Below, in pieces: positions 1 through 7,940 of a DNA stretch of 7,940 nt. Location of the stretch: positions 1 to 7,940 of IMG/VR virus record IMGVR_UViG_2563366923_000002. One strand, given 5' to 3'. The first letter of the stretch is position 1, and each line of letters starts with the position of its first letter. The stretch is from a virus (taxonomy: Duplodnaviria > Heunggongvirae > Uroviricota > Caudoviricetes). The translations under genes were made by a program, and so were the position numbers. Under the pieces are notes generated by a model that did not search any database, was not told the DNA's origin, and was given only the letters and a program-made list of their open reading frames with translations.

Positions 1-1152
1 ATGCTCACCGTTAAGCAGATTGAAGCAGCAAAGCCGAAAGAAAAACCATACCGCCTTCTCGATGGTAATGGCCTGTACCTTTATGTTCCTGTATCCGGGA
101 AAAAGGTATGGCAGCTTCGCTACAAGATTGACGGTAAGGAGAAAATCCTGACCGTCGGAAAATATCCGCTTATGACTTTGCAGGAAGCAAGGGATAAGGC
201 ATGGACTGCGAGGAAAGACATCTCGGTTGGCATCGATCCGGTAAAGGCGAAAAAGGCTTCGTCTAACAACAATTCATTTAGTGCGATTTACAAGGAATGG
301 TACGAGCACAAGAAGCAAGTCTGGTCAGTAGGCTATGCAACTGAACTTGCAAAAATGTTTGATGACGACATTTTACCTATCATCGGCGGCCTTGAAATTC
401 AGGATATTGAGCCGATGCAACTGCTGGAAGTAATCCGCAGATTTGAAGATCGCGGTGCAATGGAACGAGCCAACAAAGCACGCAGAAGATGCGGCGAGGT
501 TTTCCGTTACGCTATTGTCACCGGTAGGGCTAAATATAACCCGGCACCTGACCTTGCTGACGCCATGAAGGGATACCGCAAGAAGAACTTCCCGTTTTTA
601 CCTGCCGACCAGATCCCAGCATTCAATAAAGCACTGGCAACATTTTCAGGAAGTATCGTATCGCTTATTGCGACTAAAGTTTTACGCTACACAGCCCTCA
701 GAACAAAAGAGCTTCGTTCCATGCTATGGAAGAACGTCGATTTTGAAAACAGGATTATCACCATCGACGCCAGTGTGATGAAGGGCCGCAAGATTCATGT
801 AGTACCGATGTCAGACCAGGTGATTGAACTTCTCACTACGCTAAGCTCAATCACTAAACCAGTGTCAGAGTTTGTTTTTGCCGGGCGCAACGATAAGAAG
901 AAGCCAATCTGCGAGAACGCGGTATTGCTTGTGATCAAACAAATTGGCTATGAAGGGCTGGAAAGCGGTCACGGATTCAGGCATGAATTCAGCACGATTA
1001 TGAACGAGCACGAATGGCCTGCTGATGCTATTGAAGTGCAACTGGCACATGCCAACGGCGGATCTGTGCGCGGTATTTACAACCATGCGCAGTATCTCGA
1101 TAAGCGCAGGGAGATGATGCAGTGGTGGGCGGACTGGATTGATGGGAAATGA
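1..1152 (+). CDS. intS: Phage integrase, P4-family tyrosine recombinase (383 aa)
   Basis: N-terminus MLTVKQIEAAKPKEKPYRLLDGNGLYLYV is the arm-binding domain signature of P4-like integrases. The C-terminal catalytic region has R (LRTKELR), HGFRHEF and the tyrosine in VRGIYNHAQY. The translation matches E. coli prophage integrase IntS as I recall it (memory, not a search). Stop TGA at 1150-1152. Confidence 0.93.
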   Translation: MLTVKQIEAAKPKEKPYRLLDGNGLYLYVPVSGKKVWQLRYKIDGKEKILTVGKYPLMTLQEARDKAWTARKDISVGIDPVKAKKASSNNNSFSAIYKEWYEHKKQVWSVGYATELAKMFDDDILPIIGGLEIQDIEPMQLLEVIRRFEDRGAMERANKARRRCGEVFRYAIVTGRAKYNPAPDLADAMKGYRKKNFPFLPADQIPAFNKALATFSGSIVSLIATKVLRYTALRTKELRSMLWKNVDFENRIITIDASVMKGRKIHVVPMSDQVIELLTTLSSITKPVSEFVFAGRNDKKKPICENAVLLVIKQIGYEGLESGHGFRHEFSTIMNEHEWPADAIEVQLAHANGGSVRGIYNHAQYLDKRREMMQWWADWIDGK

Positions 1153-1155
1153 TTA

Positions 1156-1177
1156 GACATTTTCTCTAGAAAATGTC
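1156..1177 (+). terminator. Inverted repeat GACATTTT-N6-AAAATGTC 4 nt after the int stop, followed by GCGCGCTTTTCAC; weak candidate int terminator or protein-binding palindrome
   Basis: Perfect 8-bp arms with a 6-nt loop (CTCTAG) read directly from the sequence. The stem is AT-rich and the T run is short and offset, so terminator function is uncertain. Confidence 0.3.
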
Positions 1178-1236
1178 TGCGCGCTTTTCACTCAACTTTA
1201 TTTCCACACTATAAAAACACAGAATCATAAGGAAAA

Positions 1237-1266
1237 TTTGGAGGTATCTACAAAACTTGATAATAT
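1237..1266 (+). promoter_or_regulatory. Possible sigma70-type promoter for the acyltransferase gene (TTGGAG, 17-bp spacer, TAATAT)
   Basis: Hexamers read by eye about 45 bp upstream of the ATG at 1308. Both are imperfect matches to consensus; no experimental basis. Confidence 0.2.
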
Positions 1267-1307
1267 CGTGACATTTTCACAAACAGAGCAACAGGATAGT
1301 AGCCAAG

Positions 1308-2372
1308 ATGAAATCTAGCACCAAACAAGATGTAGGGATACAATATTTAAGGGGGGTATCTGCTTTATATGTCGTATTTTTCCATTTTAGAGAGTTTTTA
1401 GATAATTTTTTGCCAATAGCTATGTTGGGTCAAAAATTTTTTAGCAATGGCGCTTTCGGTGTTGATATGTTTTTTATAATTAGCGGATATATTATTTCTC
1501 TTTCAACAGAAAAAAAAGACAACTCAATTGTTAAGGGATATATCATAAAAAGATTTTTCAGAATATATCCTGCTTATTTCATAGCACTCTCTATTTTGAT
1601 TATTTTATCCCCAATAAAATATTCTCACCATGATATTTTACGTTCATTTATGATGATCCACCCTGATTATCAATATAATGCACCTTACTTTGGCTATGGT
1701 GTACTATTTACAGCATGGACATTAACATACGAGATATATTTTTATATAATATTTCTAATAGGTATGTTTTTCTCACACAAACATCGCATTATATTTACAT
1801 CAACAATTGCAATATTTGCTATGATATCAATACAGCTTATTTTCAACAAATCAATAAACATTTTCCATCAGGAACAAATTAAAAATGGCGCGGGGATATT
1901 GAATGTCCCAGGAAATATAATGGTTATAGACTTTATATATGGAATGTTTATTTATAAGATTAGAAATCATTTAAAATTAAATAAATATTCTATCGCAATA
2001 TCATTTTTACTTATATCAATTGGATTTATAACAATACAATCAGGAGTAAACGCTGGGCATGGTCCACTGCAATACGGGCTTTACTCCCTAATGATTGTTC
2101 TAGGGGTTGTTATGTACGAGAAAAATAACAAAATTACCGAGATTAAGCCATTGGTTTTTCTTGGAGATATCTCATACTCAGTTTATTTGTATCATGTGAT
2201 AATTGCTACATGTGCATATTCACTCCTATTAAAAATAGGATTTTCAGGATTATCTATGTTCTCTATGATGACAGTTTTATCAATATTTCTTGCGTATATT
2301 TCATATGTTTTAATTGAAGTTCCATCAGTTAAGGTAGGGCATTTAATGTTAAAAAAACAAACGAAAGGTTAA
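1308..2372 (+). CDS. Acyltransferase family 3 integral membrane protein, likely O-antigen/LPS O-acetyltransferase (lysogenic conversion, Oac-like), 354 aa
   Basis: The N-terminal segment IQYLRGVSALYVVFFHF carries the conserved Arg and His arrangement of the first transmembrane helix of acyltransferase-3 enzymes. The whole protein is strongly hydrophobic with many predicted helices. Its position between int and tailspike matches the oac position in Sf6-type phages. Codon usage is extremely AT-rich. Confidence 0.85.
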   Translation: MKSSTKQDVGIQYLRGVSALYVVFFHFREFLDNFLPIAMLGQKFFSNGAFGVDMFFIISGYIISLSTEKKDNSIVKGYIIKRFFRIYPAYFIALSILIILSPIKYSHHDILRSFMMIHPDYQYNAPYFGYGVLFTAWTLTYEIYFYIIFLIGMFFSHKHRIIFTSTIAIFAMISIQLIFNKSINIFHQEQIKNGAGILNVPGNIMVIDFIYGMFIYKIRNHLKLNKYSIAISFLLISIGFITIQSGVNAGHGPLQYGLYSLMIVLGVVMYEKNNKITEIKPLVFLGDISYSVYLYHVIIATCAYSLLLKIGFSGLSMFSMMTVLSIFLAYISYVLIEVPSVKVGHLMLKKQTKG

Positions 2373-2448
2373 ATATTAAAAATGTTCTTCATGGACAATA
2401 GTAAAATACCACCTCCTGAGGAGTTTGTTTAGGGATAACAATAAAAAT

Positions 2449-2475
2449 AGGCATCCAAAATGAATGCCTTTTTTA
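2449..2475. terminator. Bidirectional rho-independent terminator between the convergent acyltransferase and tailspike genes
   Basis: An A-rich tract (AATAAAAATA), a stem of about 6 bp (AGGCAT/ATGCCT, 2449-2454 and 2464-2469) with a 9-nt loop, then a T run (2470-2474). It sits exactly between the two convergent stop codons (2372 and 2476) and reads as hairpin plus U-tract on either strand. Confidence 0.5.
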
Positions 2476-3744
2476 TTACTGAATAAGATAAGCAAAAAAG
2501 CTACAGGCCACTTCGCCAGAAGTGTTGTCTCTTACTATTTTTATAGTATTATCGACGACGCCTGCTGAAATATTTGTTGCAACATCAGTTGATGTCGCAA
2601 TCACACCAATAGACGATGTATTTTGAATTGATTTTATTGTTAGAGGAATTTGTACTGATGCAGATCCATCGGGAATGATAATTATTCCTGTTTGTTTATC
2701 TGGATGGCTTGGTGAATCATTATTTATGAGCCTGCAGTTTGTTGGGCCTACGCTCGCCCCTCCATTAATGACTGTATTATATAGATATGCACTAGCACCA
2801 CCACCTGCATTATCAAAAATGGAAATATCTGCCACCCTGCCACTAGTAAGAGTGCAATTAATTACCCTTACATTCGTTACTGAGTTGACAAGAAGATCCC
2901 CGATTTGTTCATCTACGAGGTTGTTATTTTGGATGATGCAATTGTTTAGAGTTACATTAGAAGGTGAAAATATGTTCTTTGTTATTTCCACCCCCCATTT
3001 TCTACTGTCTGAAAATGTAGAACCAACAGCGGTAAACATATCACTTGAGCCTTCAATAATTGCACAAGATGATGTTGAAGAGTTAGATGAAAAATACCCA
3101 CCAACCAACGTTGCTTGTTTACTGTCCTTTACTCTTAGAGCAGGACCAGTAGCAAGATCTGACATAACGTCAATCAACCATGTCCAAGCCACCCCATCAA
3201 TATCTATTGCTGATAGACCAGCGTCTTCGTAACCGCATGAATAAAATAATTCACCATGCAACTTAAGCCCCTCTGTAATTGTTGAGACATCTTTTTTTTC
3301 ACATCTAGCATAAAACCCGGAATAACAATCTGAGTATGTATTCATAAGCATTCTTGAGTTTATTTGCCCGCCTTCAAATCTTATGCCCCAACTGCTAGCT
3401 GCAAACCTGTTATGTCTAATATCAAGCTCAGCTGCAGAATACCCTGATGGTGAATATATGCATGAGTTTAAAAAAGAAAATGAACACTCTTCTATCGTAA
3501 TAAGAGGACTCTTAATTAGAAAGCCAACACAATTACTTCCACTCTTTCCATATTTTGATGTAATGTTTAACCCATAAAATCGACTAAACTCAGAACCTTT
3601 TAATAAAATAAAGCAAGCATCTCCGTTTTTTAATGGCTCAATTACACTAAGTTTTTTAGAATCTCCATAAATACAAACCACGCTGTCTATTTCAATATTA
3701 GAAATGTAATACGGTAGGTTATTTCCTGGAACATAAATTTTTTT
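2476..3744 (-). CDS. Tailspike, C-terminal receptor-binding segment (right-handed beta-helix, putative O-antigen depolymerase); reading frame is -1 relative to the head-binding segment
   Basis: The ORF frame is open back to a TAA at 3748-3750. Read through the A7 tract, the junction gives ...[43 protein letters not shown]..., the DFGA...AIQ...YVPxG motif typical of pectate-lyase-like beta-helix proteins. The rest is rich in Asn/Ser/Thr/Gly repeats typical of beta-helix tailspikes. AT-rich like the adjacent acyltransferase. Stop TAA at 2476-2478. Confidence 0.75.
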
Positions 3745-4298
3745 GTTTTAGAGCTATCACTCTTAATGGCTTGTATGGCCGAATTAAATGCAGCGCTACA
3801 ATCAGTTCCAGGGATGGCTCCAAAATCAGTTATGCTAATAATCTCTTCATTTTTATCATGTTGTGTAGTGGTTATAGATCCGTCATGCGGCTGCTTTACG
3901 AAAACAACGTGATCATTAACAAGACCTGTTAATGTATCTGATTGTAGTTCACGTTTCAGCATATCAGGGTCATACTTCAGCACATTCGGAAAATAGAACT
4001 GCTGCGAACCGTACGCATCATAAACAGCCATAGAATGGCCTTGCACAGTTACGAACTTGGCAATCTGTCCGTTATATACGGGGTAACCTGCAGCGTTAAT
4101 GATGATTGGTTGCGATACAGGAACGTGAGAGCCGTCTTCGTTCTCTACATAAACCTGAATCTGGTTTTCAGAATTTACCGGGTCAGTGTCAATTTTACCG
4201 ATATAAATTTTGCCATTGGCTACGGCTTTAAAAGAACGAGCCATAGTGAAGAGTTGCGAAGGCATGCTGACCACAACATTTGCGGTGATATCTGACAT
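3687..4298 (-). CDS. Tailspike, N-terminal head-binding domain segment (P22 gp9-like); terminates prematurely at TAG 3687-3689 after the frame break
   Basis: Translation from the ATG at 4296-4298 gives [42 protein letters not shown]...[17 protein letters not shown]...NVLKYDPD, a close match to the P22 tailspike N-terminus as recalled from memory ([42 protein letters not shown]...). GGAG lies 6-7 nt upstream of this ATG. The ORF-track start at 4346 adds 16 unlikely leader residues. Confidence 0.9.
3738..3744 (-). other. A7 homopolymer (coding strand A AAA AAA) where the tailspike reading frame breaks; candidate -1 ribosomal frameshift or slipped-strand site, or a sequencing or decay indel
   Basis: The upstream frame reads ...ACA AAA AAA TTT ATG... 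(TKKFM) and stops 17 codons later. The downstream frame reads AAA AAA ATT TAT GTT (KKIYV) and continues for about 420 codons. One extra A or a -1 slip fuses them. Confidence 0.6.
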
Positions 4299-4323
4299 TT
4301 CATTGCTCCAGACGAATGATATG

Positions 4324-4346
4324 ATGCAACCATGATGTGATTGCAT
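4324..4346. promoter_or_regulatory. Palindrome ATGCAA-N11-TTGCAT (extended imperfect 21-bp dyad TGCAACCATGATGTGATTGCA) in the divergent mnt/tailspike control region; candidate repressor operator
   Basis: Inverted repeat read directly from the sequence, 26-48 bp upstream of the tailspike ATG and upstream of the Mnt-like gene. P22 Mnt is known to bind a palindromic operator, but this sequence is not the P22 operator as I remember it. Confidence 0.3.
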
Positions 4347-4419
4347 ACCGAAATGGTACTATTGAGTATTTATCCAGTAGGTTACGATGCCATTCCACCC
4401 AACTGGTGAGGCATCAAGG

Positions 4420-4680
4420 ATGTACAGCAAATACGACGAGGCGCAGTTTCACTTGAGACTTCCGCATGAACTCCACGCGAAAATTAAGCAGCGTGCGAAG
4501 ATGAATAACAGGTCGCTGAACTCAGAGATAATTGCAGCGATTGAGGAATCATTGGATAAACAAAGCTCTGCATCAGTTTACATTGACGATGCAGAGCGTA
4601 TGGCAGAACAACAATCTGATATGGTTAAGAAAATTGTCTTTGATACGCTCAAGAAGCTATATAAAAAAGACAGCAGATAA
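4420..4680 (+). CDS. mnt: Mnt-like ribbon-helix-helix transcriptional repressor (Arc/MetJ superfamily)
   Basis: FHLRLPHELHAKIKQRAKMNNRSLNSEIIAAIEESL and DAERMAEQQSDMVKKIVFDTLKKLYKK align with P22 Mnt (FNFRMPMEVREKLKFRAEANGRSMNSELLQIVQDAL ... DAERLADEQSELVKKMVFDTLKDLYKK, from memory). The ORF is open from the ATG at 4387; the ATG at 4420 (MYSKYDEAQFHLRLP) fits the Mnt alignment better. Either start is possible. Confidence 0.85.
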   Translation: MYSKYDEAQFHLRLPHELHAKIKQRAKMNNRSLNSEIIAAIEESLDKQSSASVYIDDAERMAEQQSDMVKKIVFDTLKKLYKKDSR

Positions 4681-4700
4681 CCATCCGTTACGGAGGATTT

Positions 4701-4778
4701 ATGCACAGAGATATGCTGAATATTGCGTTCTACATATTTGGTTTTTACACGTTCCTGGTGTTTGCGAAGCTATTCTGA
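4701..4778 (+). CDS. Hypothetical 25-aa hydrophobic peptide (MHRDMLNIAFYIFGFYTFLVFAKLF), possible small single-pass membrane protein
   Basis: GGAGG at 4692-4696 lies 4 nt before the ATG, 21 nt downstream of the mnt stop on the same strand. The peptide has a charged N-terminus followed by an 18-residue hydrophobic stretch. It is too short for the ORF track and has no homology support. Confidence 0.3.
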   Translation: MHRDMLNIAFYIFGFYTFLVFAKLF

Positions 4779-6479
4779 CAGCGCATCAGACTTAGCCCCC
4801 TGAGTCAGGGCGTTAATGGCCTTTTGTGCCTGCTGCATGGCTTTCTCGAACGCTGTTGATCCGCGTGGGGTGTTTGCCATTCGGAGCATTGCATTTCTGA
4901 ATGGCTCGCTCTCATAGGCGCGAGTAAGAAGTCCGTAGCTTACCGCTGCGCCAGTTGTCGCAGGGTTCATTGCCGTCCCATACCCGATAATGAACGGGAT
5001 GGTTTGCTGCCCTGTTGGTGTTGTTACTGCCGCTTTTGCAGCCTGCTGCGTGGATTGCAGGTAGTTTTTCAATCCTTTCAGATAAGCAGCGTCCTGCCCC
5101 TTAAATGTGATGCCAGTCTGGTTTTGCAGGATGTTAAGCTGCCGAAGGAACTGGTCAGGGGATCCGCCAGATTTCTCCATCGCCTTTCCAATGATGCCAT
5201 TGCGCATTTGCGCCCTGCCAACACGACCAACTGAGTTATACAGCGTCTTAATTTCCGATTTGTTCTTGCTGAATAGCATGTTGTTGACAACTTCCGGCGT
5301 CAGATCGCCTTTCATGAGAACATTCTTCAGCCTGGTATTCTTTAGTTTCGCGGCTTCGTCAGCGTAGACGGCATTGGCCTGCTGATATTTACGGAGAGTA
5401 ATAGCACCGCCAGCCAGCACACCAACGCCTAAATCGGTGGCGAGTGCTTCCGCATCATCTTTCGCACTGTTTGCAGCAAGTGATCCAACTGCGTTTTCTG
5501 CTAGAAGGCGAGTTGCCCCCTGAGCAATTCGACCAGCAAGTGTTGGTGACTGTGTTGCCGCTCTCTCAACGCCAGCAGGAGTGAGGTAAGGCAATGCTTC
5601 AGCAAATACCCTTCCCTCTGTCGTTTGTGGAGTCAGCGCGCCTTGCTGAAGGCCAAAGTCCTGCTCTAATCCCTGCGTTGTTACTCGTGGTGCTGGTTGA
5701 TATGTACCATCGCCAATGCCGAGTTTACCTCCAGCCCAAGCCGCCGCGCTTGTTACAGCATCAGTGAGTTCAGCAGGTATGTTCGCTACGTTGATTCCTG
5801 CCTGTAGTAAGCCGCGCCCGGTTTCAGCAAGTCCATTACCAAGGTCAGACATTATTCCGCCTTGCTGCTGAACAGGTTTCGGTGCGACAGAACTTACGGG
5901 TTGAGGTGGCTGCTGACTGGCTGCCTGCTGCTCAATCTGAGCAAATGGATTATTTGGGTCTGACTGCACGCCTGATGCCGATACTTGTTCGGATGACTGT
6001 GCTTCCAGTTGTGCAAACGGGTTGTTAGGGTCTTGCTGAGGATGTACCTTTGCAGAGGTGGCGCGCTGTTCGACTGTTGAGTCTGTCACCGGGTCACCCG
6101 CCCATTGAGCAAAGCGATCATCAACGTAACCGCGGCCTTCAGGTCCTAGCGTATATTCACCACGCTTTGCCTTCATAACGTTGCCGGGACCGTCGTGATA
6201 AGCCTGAAGAGCGTCACGCCAGTTACCAAACTGCTGGTACATCTTTGCCAGATAGCGCGCGCCAGCGTCAGCCTGATATTCGGGGTTTTGCATTTGCTCA
6301 TCGGTATAACCCATATCACGCCATGTCCCAGGCATGACCTGAGTCAATCCTACAGCCCCGGCGGAGCTTACTGCGGCAGGGTTGTAAGAAGACTCCTTGG
6401 CACCCAGTGCAGTCATCAACCCTTCTGGCACACCGTAACGTGCGCCAGCCTGCTCTAACAAATCACGGTAATTAGCCAT
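4770..6479 (-). CDS. Virion internal/ejection-type protein with N-terminal lytic transglycosylase (SLT) domain, 569 aa
   Basis: GAKESSYNPAAVSSAGAVGLTQVMPGTW is the classic SLT motif (catalytic Glu in ES, then S...GA.GL.Q). No signal peptide. It is followed by a Q/P/S-rich linker with a duplicated DPNNPFAQ(L/I)E motif and an Ala/Gly-rich C-terminal region. Its ATG (6477-6479) abuts the TAA stop (6480-6482) of the upstream gene. Confidence 0.8.
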   Translation of the reverse strand: MANYRDLLEQAGARYGVPEGLMTALGAKESSYNPAAVSSAGAVGLTQVMPGTWRDMGYTDEQMQNPEYQADAGARYLAKMYQQFGNWRDALQAYHDGPGNVMKAKRGEYTLGPEGRGYVDDRFAQWAGDPVTDSTVEQRATSAKVHPQQDPNNPFAQLEAQSSEQVSASGVQSDPNNPFAQIEQQAASQQPPQPVSSVAPKPVQQQGGIMSDLGNGLAETGRGLLQAGINVANIPAELTDAVTSAAAWAGGKLGIGDGTYQPAPRVTTQGLEQDFGLQQGALTPQTTEGRVFAEALPYLTPAGVERAATQSPTLAGRIAQGATRLLAENAVGSLAANSAKDDAEALATDLGVGVLAGGAITLRKYQQANAVYADEAAKLKNTRLKNVLMKGDLTPEVVNNMLFSKNKSEIKTLYNSVGRVGRAQMRNGIIGKAMEKSGGSPDQFLRQLNILQNQTGITFKGQDAAYLKGLKNYLQSTQQAAKAAVTTPTGQQTIPFIIGYGTAMNPATTGAAVSYGLLTRAYESEPFRNAMLRMANTPRGSTAFEKAMQQAQKAINALTQGAKSDALSE

Positions 6480-7484
6480 TTACTGCCCCAAAGATGGAAG
6501 ATATCCGTAGCGATTAATGAAGTCGATTGACAGCTCGGGGTGCTGCTTCAGGTAATCTATAGAAGCCTGAGGCGCTTCCACTCGCTTGATACCGTTTTGC
6601 TGAACGTACTTACCAACCGCCTCATTACGCTTCTGGTTGAGCGTGTTCAGGATGACGCCAGCGTTGCGACGAAAGGACTCCTCGCTCTGCGAGTTCTGCA
6701 GCGAACCAACAGCCTGGTCGAGCTTTTTGCCCTCGGCATCAGAAAGTGCGCCCATGCCTCGCATGGCCTGAACCGCTGTCAGGTATGCTTGTGATTTAAA
6801 GGTATCAAGTCGTGCCTGAGTGTCTGCAGCCTGTGAGCCTGGAACGTTGGGGATTACTCCACGTAAGCCTGTAATGCTCTTAAGTGAAGGAGAACTAACG
6901 ATATCGTTCAGAGTGAACATGCTGGTTGTGATGGTGTTGATGCCGTCTTTGTAGCCATCATTTAGCGCTTGCTGCTTCTGCTGCAACTGCTGGTTGTTGG
7001 CTGCTATGCGGCTCTGTATTTCCTGGCGCTTCAGGTCGTTAGTTTCTGCTGATAGCATCCGGTCAAGGCGCTTATTTTCGTTGTTAATGCGGTTTGTTTC
7101 TGCGTCCAGGTTAATGCGCTGCTGACCTAAATTCGCCTGGATATCTTGTCCGCGCATTGTGATTGCCTGATTCCGAGCGGCGGTTTGCGAATCCAGATCC
7201 TGACCGCGCATGGTAACCTGTCGACCCTGCATTTTATCCTGTAGGTCAAAGTATTTTTCGGGCCCGAGACTGTTCATCCCCAGGTGATCGACAAATTCGC
7301 CGAACTGCCGCGGGTTCTGTTGGTACATCTGAGCGACGTCATGAGGATTAACGCCAACACGAGCTAACTCACCGGCGTTGTTTTGCAGCCATGATTGCAT
7401 TGCTTCTGGAGAAGATGACGCAAGACGTGCGCCAGCCGCTAATGTACCGATAGAATTACGCTGGTCTTCATCAATGAATCCCAT
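6480..7484 (-). CDS. Putative virion/ejection protein, Gln/Asn-rich with coiled-coil-like repeats, 334 aa; start uncertain, possibly 5'-truncated
   Basis: Long ORF tightly coupled to the downstream SLT gene. Contains a tandem peptide repeat (VTMRGQDLDSQTAARNQ / AITMRGQDIQANLGQQR). The ATG at 7484 has only AGG one nt upstream, and the frame stays open a further 24 codons to a stop at 7557-7559 with no alternative start. Confidence 0.6.
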   Translation of the reverse strand: MGFIDEDQRNSIGTLAAGARLASSSPEAMQSWLQNNAGELARVGVNPHDVAQMYQQNPRQFGEFVDHLGMNSLGPEKYFDLQDKMQGRQVTMRGQDLDSQTAARNQAITMRGQDIQANLGQQRINLDAETNRINNENKRLDRMLSAETNDLKRQEIQSRIAANNQQLQQKQQALNDGYKDGINTITTSMFTLNDIVSSPSLKSITGLRGVIPNVPGSQAADTQARLDTFKSQAYLTAVQAMRGMGALSDAEGKKLDQAVGSLQNSQSEESFRRNAGVILNTLNQKRNEAVGKYVQQNGIKRVEAPQASIDYLKQHPELSIDFINRYGYLPSLGQ

Positions 7485-7606
7485 GCCTTTACGAACGGAT
7501 TCAATCTGGTCTGGATATTGAGTATACCCCTCCGAATGAGACTCAACAAGCTGGAGCTAGACTACCAGCCACCACACCACCAAAGCTAACTGACAGGAGA
7601 ATCCAG

Positions 7607-7692
7607 ATGGATGCACAAACACGCCGCCGCGAACGTCGCGCAGAGAAACAGGCTCAATGGAAAGCAGCAAATCCCCTGTTGGTTGGGGTACT
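7607..7692 (+). pseudogene. N: 5' fragment of a lambda-type N antiterminator gene (arginine-rich boxB-binding peptide), diverging after about codon 28
   Basis: AGGAG at 7595-7599 with 7-nt spacing to the ATG at 7607. Translation MDAQTRRRERRAEKQAQWKAANPLLVGV equals the N-terminus of phage lambda N as I recall it, then continues as unrelated LIQYQRENALCVMQMWCPRTRKTN with a stop at 7763-7765. No nutL boxB hairpin found upstream. Confidence 0.7.
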
Positions 7693-7712
7693 CATTCAGT
7701 ATCAGAGGGAAA

Positions 7713-7940
7713 ATGCGCTATGTGTCATGCAAATGTGGTGCCCAAGGACCAGAAAAACGAACTAAATCTGAAGCGATTTCTTCATGGAATAGTCGAATGA
7801 AAGTATGGGTTTATGATCCAGAAACCATATTAAACGCTGAAGAGCGCAGGAGAACGGAAGTCTATATTCATAACCTTAATGAAGATGGATTTACACCAGT
7901 GCTTGTAAAGGCTACTCCGCAGGAGGTTACCGGCGTGTAA
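7713..7940 (+). CDS. Small protein with Lar-like (restriction alleviation family) C-terminal motif, 75 aa from the ATG at 7713; possibly a truncated or degenerate family member
   Basis: VSCKCGAQGPEKRTKSEAISSWNSR resembles the second zinc-knuckle and C-terminal region of Lar-family proteins (C..CGA.GP...EAI.AWN.R, recalled consensus), but the first CPFCG knuckle is absent. AGAGGG lies 4-5 nt before the ATG. The ORF-track version starts at 7611 and overlaps the N fragment in another frame, so that upstream part is probably not real. Stop TAA at 7938-7940. Confidence 0.4.
   Translation: MRYVSCKCGAQGPEKRTKSEAISSWNSRMKVWVYDPETILNAEERRRTEVYIHNLNEDGFTPVLVKATPQEVTGV

What the first reader, a model, noticed from the sequence alone, without database searches (positions are those of the whole stretch)
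7693..7940. Lar-like anti-restriction motif in a small ORF that seems to lack its first zinc knuckle
The segment CKCGAQGPEKRTKSEAISSWNSR resembles the C-terminal half of Lar-family restriction-alleviation proteins, but the upstream half has only a PC..G remnant (IPCWLG) instead of the usual CPFCG. Either the gene was truncated at the lambda-like junction, or it is a divergent two-cysteine variant with a C-terminal extension (WVYDPETILNAEERRRTEVYIHNLNEDGFTPVLVKATPQEV). Anti-restriction genes are typical early-region cargo.
Basis: inference. Interest (0 to 1): 0.45.

Follow-up and report, generated by a model that had tools for sequence, protein, structure and literature searches.

The report
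Truncated Lar gene in prophage wreck
The small ORF is a leftover piece of a known phage anti-restriction (Lar-family) gene that lost its first 17 and last 3 codons to deletions in a decaying E. coli prophage, so it is an ordinary gene fragment and not a new two-cysteine variant.

Summary
Window 7689-7929 is 99.6% identical to Sf6 gene 20 and 100% identical to an intact E. coli allele, both annotated as Lar family. The copy starts at codon 18, so the first zinc knuckle (CPFCG) is missing.

The cause is deletion, not divergence. DNA up to 7690 is the first 28 codons of a lambdoid N gene, 100% identical to HK544/HK446/mEp213 N and joined out of frame at a 2-nt TA overlap. The supposed "IPCWLG remnant" is N-gene DNA read in the wrong frame. 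The 3' end is also cut: from 7930 the sequence is antisense host dsdC, which supplies the last three codons and the stop.

The "C-terminal extension" is native to intact Sf6-type Lar proteins and is their best-conserved part.

The fragment scores below both curated Lar cut-offs, while the intact parent passes both. All four cysteines are invariant in intact relatives.

The window is a decayed Sf6/HK620-like prophage at argW. It lacks pL, nutL and any predicted promoter upstream of the fragment. The same junctions occur in E. coli 730V1 and in several independent assemblies.

Verdict: a known family and an almost certainly inactive pseudogene fragment; low interest.

The parts
6480..7524 (-). 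5'-truncated phage DNA-ejection protein gene (334-aa ORF remnant; the intact homologue in 730V1 is 443 aa). It ends at deletion junction J1.
   Evidence: ORF list. Pfam Inj_translocase on the same product in L004. The collinear match to 730V1 stops at window 7524.
7523..7524 (.). Junction J1: a TA overlap between the ejection gene and the N leader. Relative to 730V1 it removes 2373 bp holding the 5' end of the ejection gene, KilA-N, Rz/Rz1 remnants, the cI-like repressor, pL and nutL.
   Evidence: blastn breakpoints. Parental sequences. The same junction is present in L004, L005, L008, L009 and L010.
7523..7606 (+). Last 84 nt of a lambdoid N leader, including the N Shine-Dalgarno AGGAG (7595-7599). 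It has no pL and no nutL boxA/boxB.
   Evidence: 100% match to HK544/HK446/mEp213. In 730V1, pL and nutL (GCCCTGAAGAAGGGC) lie further upstream in DNA the window lacks. No promoter-like site in 7200-7940.
7607..7690 (+). N': the first 28 codons of the lambdoid antiterminator N (the arginine-rich boxB-binding peptide). After the junction this frame runs out of frame to a stop at 7763-7765 (52-aa chimeric ORF).
   Evidence: Pfam N36 E=6.4e-20. 100% DNA identity to N genes. PGAP annotates it in 730V1 as 'antitermination protein N, incomplete'.
7689..7690 (.). Junction J2: a TA overlap joining N codon 28 to lar codon 18, out of frame with respect to N.
   Evidence: Alignment with Sf6. Identical junction in all nine E. 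coli loci L002-L010.
7689..7929 (+). lar': codons 18-97 of an Sf6-type Lar-family gene. It keeps part of beta1, beta2, the second knuckle CKCG, the EAISSWNSR helix and the conserved tail. It lacks knuckle 1 (CPFCG) and the first 4 residues of beta1.
   Evidence: 99.6% identity to Sf6 gene 20. 100% identity to the intact allele of E. coli H2. HMM hits cover the C-terminal part of each profile only. Secondary structure from the AF2 model.
7611..7940 (+). The 109-codon ORF as read by stage 1. Codons 1-26 are N-gene DNA in the +1 frame, codons 27-106 are lar', and codons 107-109 plus the stop are antisense dsdC. PGAP calls an 85-aa version from TTG 7683.
7928..7929 (.). Junction J3: a TA overlap between lar codons 97/98 and host dsdC codon 128 (antisense). 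It removes the rest of the prophage early-left arm, attR and the 3' part of dsdC beyond codon 128.
   Evidence: Three-way base-level comparison of Sf6, the window and K-12 dsdC. The dsdC' translation ends ...GDFTRR* at the junction.
7930..7940 (-). Start of the host dsdC remnant (antisense). It provides codons ..GV and the TAA stop of the ORF.

Best explanation
The ORF is a pseudogene fragment of an Sf6-type Lar-family gene (phage Sf6 gene 20). It sits in a heavily deleted Sf6/HK620-like (P22-like) prophage integrated at argW in E. coli. Two illegitimate deletions, each at a 2-nt TA overlap, define it. One fused codon 28 of the prophage's lambdoid N gene, out of frame, to lar codon 18. That removed the early-left genes between N and lar and the first Zn knuckle (MNLYRCPFCGSTVLNIG). 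The other fused lar codon 97 to antisense host dsdC at its codon 128, removing the prophage end, attR and the rest of dsdC. In this window a third deletion removed the repressor, pL and nutL, leaving the fragment without its native promoter. The open frame back to ATG 7611 is an accident of the +1 frame of N. With two of four invariant Zn ligands and part of the first beta strand gone, the product, if made at all, should not fold as a Lar zinc ribbon. It is therefore most likely inactive. Shown: the homology, the breakpoints, the missing parts and the recurrence of the junctions in other genomes. Inferred: lack of expression and lack of function.
For: DNA identity: 7523-7690 is 100% identical to lambdoid N and 7689-7929 is 99.6% identical to Sf6 gene 20. 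The latter stretch is 100% identical to an intact 303-nt allele in E. coli H2. Intact gp20 carries CPFCG at residues 6-10. The intact protein passes the curated cut-offs (Pfam 35.8 vs 28.6 bits; TIGR03655 58.7 vs 39.6). The window ORF fails both (22.6 and 33.2 bits) and matches only profile positions 24-57 and 17-55. C6, C9, C31 and C33 are invariant in intact relatives. Both knuckles are present in 141 of 149 exhaustive-search representatives. The AF2 model (pLDDT 83.7; 85-95 over the Lar domain) places the lost residues in knuckle 1 plus the start of beta1. For the 3' junction, from 7930 the sequence is K-12 dsdC antisense. Context: the region runs argW-intS-oac-tailspike-...-N'-lar'-dsdC'-dsdX-dsdA in E. 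coli 730V1, where PGAP flags N and dsdC as incomplete. The window is 100% identical to an independent assembly, L004. Of 154 E. coli complete genomes holding this allele, 152 hold at least 80% of the gene. No sigma-70-like promoter was found in 7200-7940, and pL/nutL are absent.
Against: The frame is open for 109 codons. Its ATG (7611) lies 11 nt from the strong N Shine-Dalgarno, so translation is conceivable if any transcript crosses it. The fragment carries no inactivating substitutions relative to intact alleles, although 241 nt is too short and too recent for that to be informative. The conserved tail domain is almost intact. J2 and J3 are retained in several lineages and decay states. That could reflect hitch-hiking, but it does not exclude selection. 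No expression or activity data were available.
Confidence: 0.93

Rival explanations
1. It is a genuine, functional two-cysteine Lar variant with a C-terminal extension: a divergent family member that does not need the first knuckle.
For: An ORF is open across the region and PGAP names an 85-aa version 'restriction alleviation protein, Lar family'. One other contig (L013, P0004) has a different in-frame N-terminus joined at the same MRYVSCK boundary. Rare family members have altered first knuckles, CxxxC or CxxH.
Against: The fragment is not divergent at all: it is 100% identical in DNA to intact four-Cys alleles. The sequence replacing the N-terminus is N-gene DNA in the wrong frame. Its scores fall below both curated cut-offs. 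The apparently common 75-aa 'two-Cys' form P0005 is only a start-codon miscall, since intact CPFCG is encoded in frame just upstream. The four Cys are invariant in the subfamily.
Confidence: 0.03
2. It is a domesticated remnant. The conserved beta-alpha-beta tail (residues 54-97 of gp20) is the active module. It is still produced from ATG 7611, TTG 7683 or ATG 7714 and gives the host some benefit, which would explain retention of the junctions in several lineages.
For: The tail is the best-conserved part of the Sf6-type subfamily. It is predicted to fold on its own (pLDDT 70-81). J2 and J3 are identical in nine loci, including one with different tail modules (L005).
Against: The window has no native promoter and no promoter-like site. 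In 730V1 the fragment sits behind a repressor-controlled pL, in the wrong frame relative to N. The tail has no known function or family. It occurs only fused to a complete Lar domain in intact genes. Shared junctions are what common descent of a small neutral remnant would produce.
Confidence: 0.03
3. It is an assembly or chimera artefact: the N|lar and lar|dsdC joins do not exist in a real genome.
For: There are three abrupt junctions within 420 bp.
Against: The same junctions are present in a complete, closed genome (730V1) and in at least 8 independently assembled contigs. One of these is 100% identical to the whole window.
Confidence: 0.01

Closest known systems
Shigella phage Sf6 gene 20 protein (NP_958196, 'Lar-like restriction alleviation protein', 100 aa) and its E. 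coli prophage alleles (e.g. WP_001309625 in strain H2)
   Same: The same gene by descent. Identity over window 7689-7929 is 99.6% (Sf6) and 100% (H2). It shares the second knuckle CKCGAQGP, the EAISSWNSR helix and the 45-residue tail.
   Different: The window copy lacks codons 1-17 (MNLYRCPFCGSTVLNIG) and codons 98-100. It has no native start codon, ribosome-binding site or promoter.
Lar / RalR of the E. coli K-12 Rac prophage (b1348, 64 aa), founding member of PF14354 / TIGR03655
   Same: Intact Sf6 gp20 shares the CPFCG...C-x-C...EA(I/L)xxWNxR pattern with RalR (34% identity over 53 residues, E=1e-5). Both lie in the early-left region of a lambdoid prophage near recombination genes. Reported activities: alleviation of EcoKI restriction and enhanced modification (King & Murray 1995, cited in PMC4041452), and a non-specific DNase toxin paired with the RalA sRNA (PMC4041452).
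   Different: RalR is a bare 64-aa Lar domain without the Sf6-type tail, and its second knuckle is CxxC rather than CxC. No activity has been shown for Sf6 gp20, and none can be expected of the window fragment, which has only half the Zn site.
Lambda Ral
   Same: Functional analogue only: an early-left-operon protein that alleviates type IA restriction by speeding modification (PMC12707154).
   Different: This is my own knowledge: Ral is not sequence-related to Lar and has no zinc ribbon. This was not tested here.
Lambdoid antiterminator N (HK544/HK446/mEp213 type)
   Same: Window 7607-7690 is the first 28 codons, the arginine-rich boxB-binding peptide, at 100% identity.
   Different: Only 28 codons remain. 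They are fused out of frame, and the window has no nutL or pL.

Membership tests
Lar restriction-alleviation family (Pfam PF14354 / NCBIfam TIGR03655) | Score at or above the curated family cut-off | tested here: not met
   Window ORF: Pfam 22.6 bits against a cut-off of 28.6; TIGR03655 33.2-33.3 bits against 39.6. Intact Sf6 gp20 passes both, at 35.8 and 58.7 bits.
Lar restriction-alleviation family (Pfam PF14354 / NCBIfam TIGR03655) | Four Zn-ligand cysteines in two knuckles (CPFCG ... CxxCG/CxCG) | tested here: not met
   Only the second knuckle (C40, C42 of the ORF) is lar-derived. The first is deleted. The four Cys are invariant in intact relatives, and 141 of 149 representatives have both knuckles.
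Lar restriction-alleviation family (Pfam PF14354 / NCBIfam TIGR03655) | C-terminal helix motif EA(I/L)xxWNxR following knuckle 2 | tested here: met
   The ORF contains SEAISSWNSR. W50 is invariant and A46, N51 and R53 are nearly invariant across 91 family members.
Lar restriction-alleviation family (Pfam PF14354 / NCBIfam TIGR03655) | Descent from a bona fide family member (orthology at DNA level) | tested here: met
   100% identity over 241 nt to the intact Lar-family gene of E. coli H2, and 99.6% to Sf6 gene 20. The ORF is therefore a fragment of a member, not a complete member.
Lar restriction-alleviation family (Pfam PF14354 / NCBIfam TIGR03655) | Alleviates type IA (EcoKI) restriction / enhances modification | not testable with these tools
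   Needs a plating assay. The activity is documented only for Rac Lar (King & Murray 1995, cited in PMC4041452 and PMC6158711).
RalR/RalA type I toxin-antitoxin | Cognate antisense/trans sRNA antitoxin next to the toxin gene | tested here: inconclusive
   No Rfam family reaches its gathering score anywhere in the window. I did not verify that a RalA model exists in Rfam. The downstream DNA where K-12 carries ralA is deleted here.
Lambdoid antiterminator N | N-terminal arginine-rich boxB-binding peptide | tested here: met
   Pfam N36 E=6.4e-20, residues 2-28.
Lambdoid antiterminator N | Full-length protein with the C-terminal regions, plus a nut site upstream | tested here: not met
   Only 28 codons remain before the out-of-frame junction. 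nutL boxB is present in 730V1 but falls in the 2373 bp missing from the window.

The most novel reading that the evidence does not exclude
The conserved ~45-residue beta-alpha-beta tail of Sf6-type Lar proteins is an uncharacterised functional module. The fragment, translated from the second ATG (7611) that shares N's ribosome-binding site, still delivers that module to the cell. On this reading the remnant is a domesticated gene rather than junk.
Probability: 0.03. Interest if true: 0.35.

Novelty: already known. Interest (0 to 1): 0.08.

Why it matters
It matters little biologically. This is a textbook example of prophage decay by successive short-overlap deletions, and the gene family is already named in public annotation. 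The practical value is for annotation. The 85-aa and 109-aa ORFs should be flagged as a pseudogene fragment rather than as 'restriction alleviation protein, Lar family'. The 75-aa 'Lar' cluster seen in protein databases is a start-site miscall. The one modestly open question is the function of the conserved C-terminal tail in intact Sf6-type Lar proteins, which no library or solved structure explains.

Tried and rejected
1. Two-cysteine variant. I checked P0005 (75 aa, 147 member sequences), which starts at MRYVSCKCG. The DNA in L012 shows the intact CPFCG N-terminus in frame, with an ATGA start/stop overlap, so the 75-aa form is a gene-calling artefact.

2. Synthetic or mis-assembled window. 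The window matches 730V1 in three pieces, which raised this possibility. It is rejected because Logan contig L004 is 100% identical over all 7940 nt and four more contigs share J1.

3. Tail as a known domain. Pfam, PHROGs and PADLOC gave nothing for residues 54-100 alone. A PDB sequence search found nothing with E<0.9.

5. IS-mediated deletion. ISKpn26 copies flank the region in 730V1, but no IS sequence sits at any junction and the parental sites are not consistent IS5 YTAR targets (my reading).

6. Known RNAs. Rfam found none in the window.

7. Promoter or read-through. There is no promoter-like site near the fragment. The single weak + strand site at 4505-4532 is below the number expected by chance.

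Full report
**1. What is at the coordinates**

The + strand carries a 109-codon ORF at 7611-7940. A second ORF starts 4 nt earlier, at ATG 7607, and reads MDAQTRRRERRAEKQAQWKAANPLLVGV.... Pfam identifies that peptide as the N-terminal boxB-binding peptide of the lambda-type antiterminator N (N36, E=6.4e-20). The 109-aa ORF hits the Lar models only weakly and only over their C-terminal parts:
- Pfam PF14354: 22.6 bits, E=1.3e-4, profile positions 24-57 of 58, against a cut-off of 28.6.
- NCBIfam TIGR03655: 33.2 bits, E=4.6e-8, profile positions 17-55 of 55, against a cut-off of 39.6.

**2. The region is a three-part mosaic with base-level breakpoints**

A megablast against phage records splits the end of the window into two blocks.
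- Window 7523-7690 is 100% identical to the 5' end and leader of the N gene of HK544, HK446 and mEp213.
- Window 7689-7929 is 99.6% identical to gene 20 of Shigella phage Sf6, annotated 'Lar-like restriction alleviation protein'.

Intact Sf6 gp20 is 100 aa: MNLYRCPFCGSTVLNIGYSFSIRGKMRYVSCKCGAQGPEKRTRSEAISSWNSRMKVWVYDPETILNAEERRRTEVYIHNLNEDGFTPVLVKATPQEVNHG.

The pairwise alignment shows that the window copy begins at codon 18 (Y). The 17 lost codons include CPFCG. The join is N ...TTGGGGTA | CTCATTCAG... lar, with a TA overlap at 7689-7690, and it is out of frame relative to N.

It follows that 'IPCWLG' (7671-7688) is N-gene DNA read in its +1 frame. It is not a degenerate knuckle. The long open frame back to ATG 7611 is accidental.

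The last 11 nt also differ from Sf6. A three-way comparison with K-12 shows that from 7930 the sequence is antisense dsdC, broken at dsdC codon 128, again with a TA overlap (7928-7929). The truncated dsdC keeps only its LysR HTH domain and stops exactly at the junction. The lar remnant is therefore cut at both ends and comprises codons 18-97 only.

**3. Genomic context**

The whole window matches E. coli O19:H7 strain 730V1 at about 100% identity in three collinear pieces. In that genome the order is yfdC - tRNA-Arg (argW) - intS - [ISKpn26] - acyltransferase (oac) - tailspike - arc/mnt - ejection proteins - KilA-N - Rz/Rz1 remnants - cI-like repressor - N' - lar' - dsdC' - dsdX - dsdA. PGAP flags N and dsdC there as incomplete. 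This is a gutted Sf6/HK620-like prophage at the argW attachment site. The Sf6 record shows the same int-oac and gene 20 layout, with attP between int and the xis-side genes.

Relative to 730V1 the window differs in two ways.
- It lacks the IS, which in 730V1 is inserted at a CTAG.
- It lacks 2373 bp between the ejection gene and the N leader (junction J1 at 7523-7524, again a TA overlap). That stretch holds the repressor gene, a pL-like promoter and nutL with boxB GCCCTGAAGAAGGGC.

The window is not an artefact. Logan contig L004 is 100% identical over all 7940 nt. Four more independent contigs share J1. All nine E. coli loci examined share identical J2 and J3. Among 5426 complete E. coli genomes only 730V1 has the N'|lar' junction. 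Of the 154 genomes carrying this lar allele, 152 hold at least 80% of the gene.

**4. Is a two-cysteine form plausible?**

No, for the following reasons.
- The fragment is 100% identical in DNA to an intact 303-nt allele in E. coli H2. Nothing about it is divergent.
- In seven intact relatives down to 67% identity, C6, C9, C31 and C33 are invariant.
- An exhaustive phmmer search with an intact relative returned 258 cluster representatives. Nearly all align from query residue 1-5 to 53-55, which is the whole domain including knuckle 1.
- A pattern count found both knuckles plus the Trp in 141 of the 149 listed hits. The exceptions were fragments, repetitive proteins, or rare CxxxC/CxxH variants.
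- In a 91-sequence alignment the four Cys and W50 are invariant. That set was pre-filtered on the motif, so the 141/149 count is the unbiased figure.
- The apparently common 75-aa form (P0005) is a start-site miscall, because the intact N-terminus is encoded in frame upstream.
- One single-contig case (P0004) has a different in-frame N-terminus at the same boundary. This shows that the gene is broken here more than once. It does not show that such forms work.

**5. Structure**

AlphaFold2 with the 91-sequence alignment gives a confident model of an intact relative (mean pLDDT 83.7; 85-95 over residues 1-50). The elements are:
- an N-terminal knuckle segment (residues 1-13);
- a beta-hairpin (14-21 and 24-31);
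- the second knuckle;
- a helix (43-52) carrying EAIxxWNxR;
- a separate beta-alpha-beta tail (56-58, 67-82, 88-90; pLDDT 70-81).

The deletion removes the first knuckle and the first four residues of beta1.

By established knowledge of zinc ribbons, losing two of four ligands abolishes the metal site that holds such a small domain together. This step is inference and was not tested here.

**6. The 'C-terminal extension'**

The extension is native to the Sf6-type subfamily and is its best-conserved part. It is restricted to a narrow enterobacterial clade, with relatives at 62% and 38% identity. Other Lar-domain proteins carry unrelated extensions or none. K-12 RalR is a bare 64-aa domain. No library assigns the tail a function.

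**7. Expression**

No sigma-70-like promoter or terminator was found in 7200-7940. The only promoter-like site further upstream on the + strand is a weak one at 4505-4532, below the number expected by chance. The native pL and nutL are deleted.

The neighbouring genes upstream are on the opposite strand. The dsdC' gene is oriented so that its transcription runs antisense into the fragment.

ATG 7611 lies 11 nt from N's AGGAG, so translation is conceivable if a transcript exists. The N ATG, at the better 7-nt spacing, would compete with it and leads into a 52-aa out-of-frame product. All of this paragraph is inference from sequence.

**8. Comparison with what is known**

The family is known. 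Rac Lar/RalR alleviates EcoKI restriction (King & Murray 1995, cited in PMC4041452 and PMC6158711) and has been described as a DNase toxin with the RalA sRNA antitoxin (PMC4041452). Lambda Ral is the functional analogue (PMC12707154).

The window ORF is a fragment of a family member by descent. It fails the family's defining tests, both the curated score and the four-Cys site. It should therefore be filed as a pseudogene fragment, not as a member or a variant.

**9. Verdict**

The 'divergent two-cysteine variant', the 'PC..G remnant' and the 'extension' readings are wrong.

This is an ordinary product of prophage decay, with low interest. Residual uncertainty (about 5-7%) concerns only whether the remnant is expressed and does anything.

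Noticed in passing
window 3737 (tailspike gene, - strand, 2476-4346): A 1-nt deletion in a poly-T run (T7 here, T8 in 730V1) splits the tailspike/head-binding gene into 401-aa and 219-aa ORFs. In 730V1 it is one 607-aa CDS. This is a further sign of decay.
   Followed up: partly
window 7928-7940 and beyond (L003 14006-14389; L004 8118-8504): Host dsdC is cut at codon 128, leaving only the LysR HTH domain, with its stop codon created by the junction. dsdX and dsdA are intact downstream. Carrier strains have probably lost normal DsdC activation of D-serine catabolism.
   Followed up: partly
window 7523-7524, 7689-7690, 7928-7929: All three deletion junctions have the same 2-nt TA overlap. Five of the six parental breakpoints read GGNTA immediately 5' of the break (GGGTA, GGATA, GGTTA, GGATA, GGTTA; the sixth is GAGTA). 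This is probably ordinary short-homology illegitimate recombination, but the recurrence is striking.
   Followed up: partly
L003 (730V1), L006/L007, window/L004/L005/L008-L010: Public assemblies capture at least three nested decay states of the same argW prophage remnant, with 2373 bp, 1666 bp or 0 bp between the ejection gene and the N leader. All share identical N'|lar' and lar'|dsdC' junctions.
   Followed up: partly
window 1162-1169 vs L003 3670-4861: 730V1 carries an IS5-family ISKpn26 inserted at a CTAG between intS and oac, which the window lacks. A second ISKpn26 copy lies about 8 kb beyond dsdA, next to a truncated gene following evgA (L002 17548-18418).
   Followed up: partly
L012 3926-4228 (protein P0005): A 75-aa 'Lar' cluster with 147 member sequences is a start-codon miscall. 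The real gene starts 75 nt upstream, at an ATG overlapping the preceding gene's stop (ATGA), and encodes the full CPFCG N-terminus.
   Followed up: yes
L013 3253-3549 (protein P0004): A single contig carries a lar gene whose first 25 codons are replaced in frame by an unrelated N-terminus (MTTITKDRLLTIQQWRETYGPGS) exactly at MRYVSCKCG. This is a second, independent break inside the gene a few codons from the window's junction.
   Followed up: no
L005 (Logan SRR26665493) vs window 1143-5398: This contig shares J1-J3 and the ejection-gene remnant at 99.6% identity. However, it has a different tailspike (669 aa), a longer gp16-like protein (797 aa) and other genes in place of oac. This implies recombinational replacement of the left part of the remnant after the deletions.
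   Followed up: no
window 7607-7613: The tandem start ATGGATG gives two ATGs 4 nt apart behind one Shine-Dalgarno. The first opens N'. The second opens the +1 frame that happens to run in frame into lar'.
   Followed up: partly
L015 (E. coli H2, NZ_CP028733 1503903-1507143): This is another decayed P22-like prophage. An intact lar gene there sits directly after a truncated ead/Ea22 pseudogene and an oppositely oriented DNA-transfer gene. It is an independent example of large internal deletions ending near lar.
   Followed up: no
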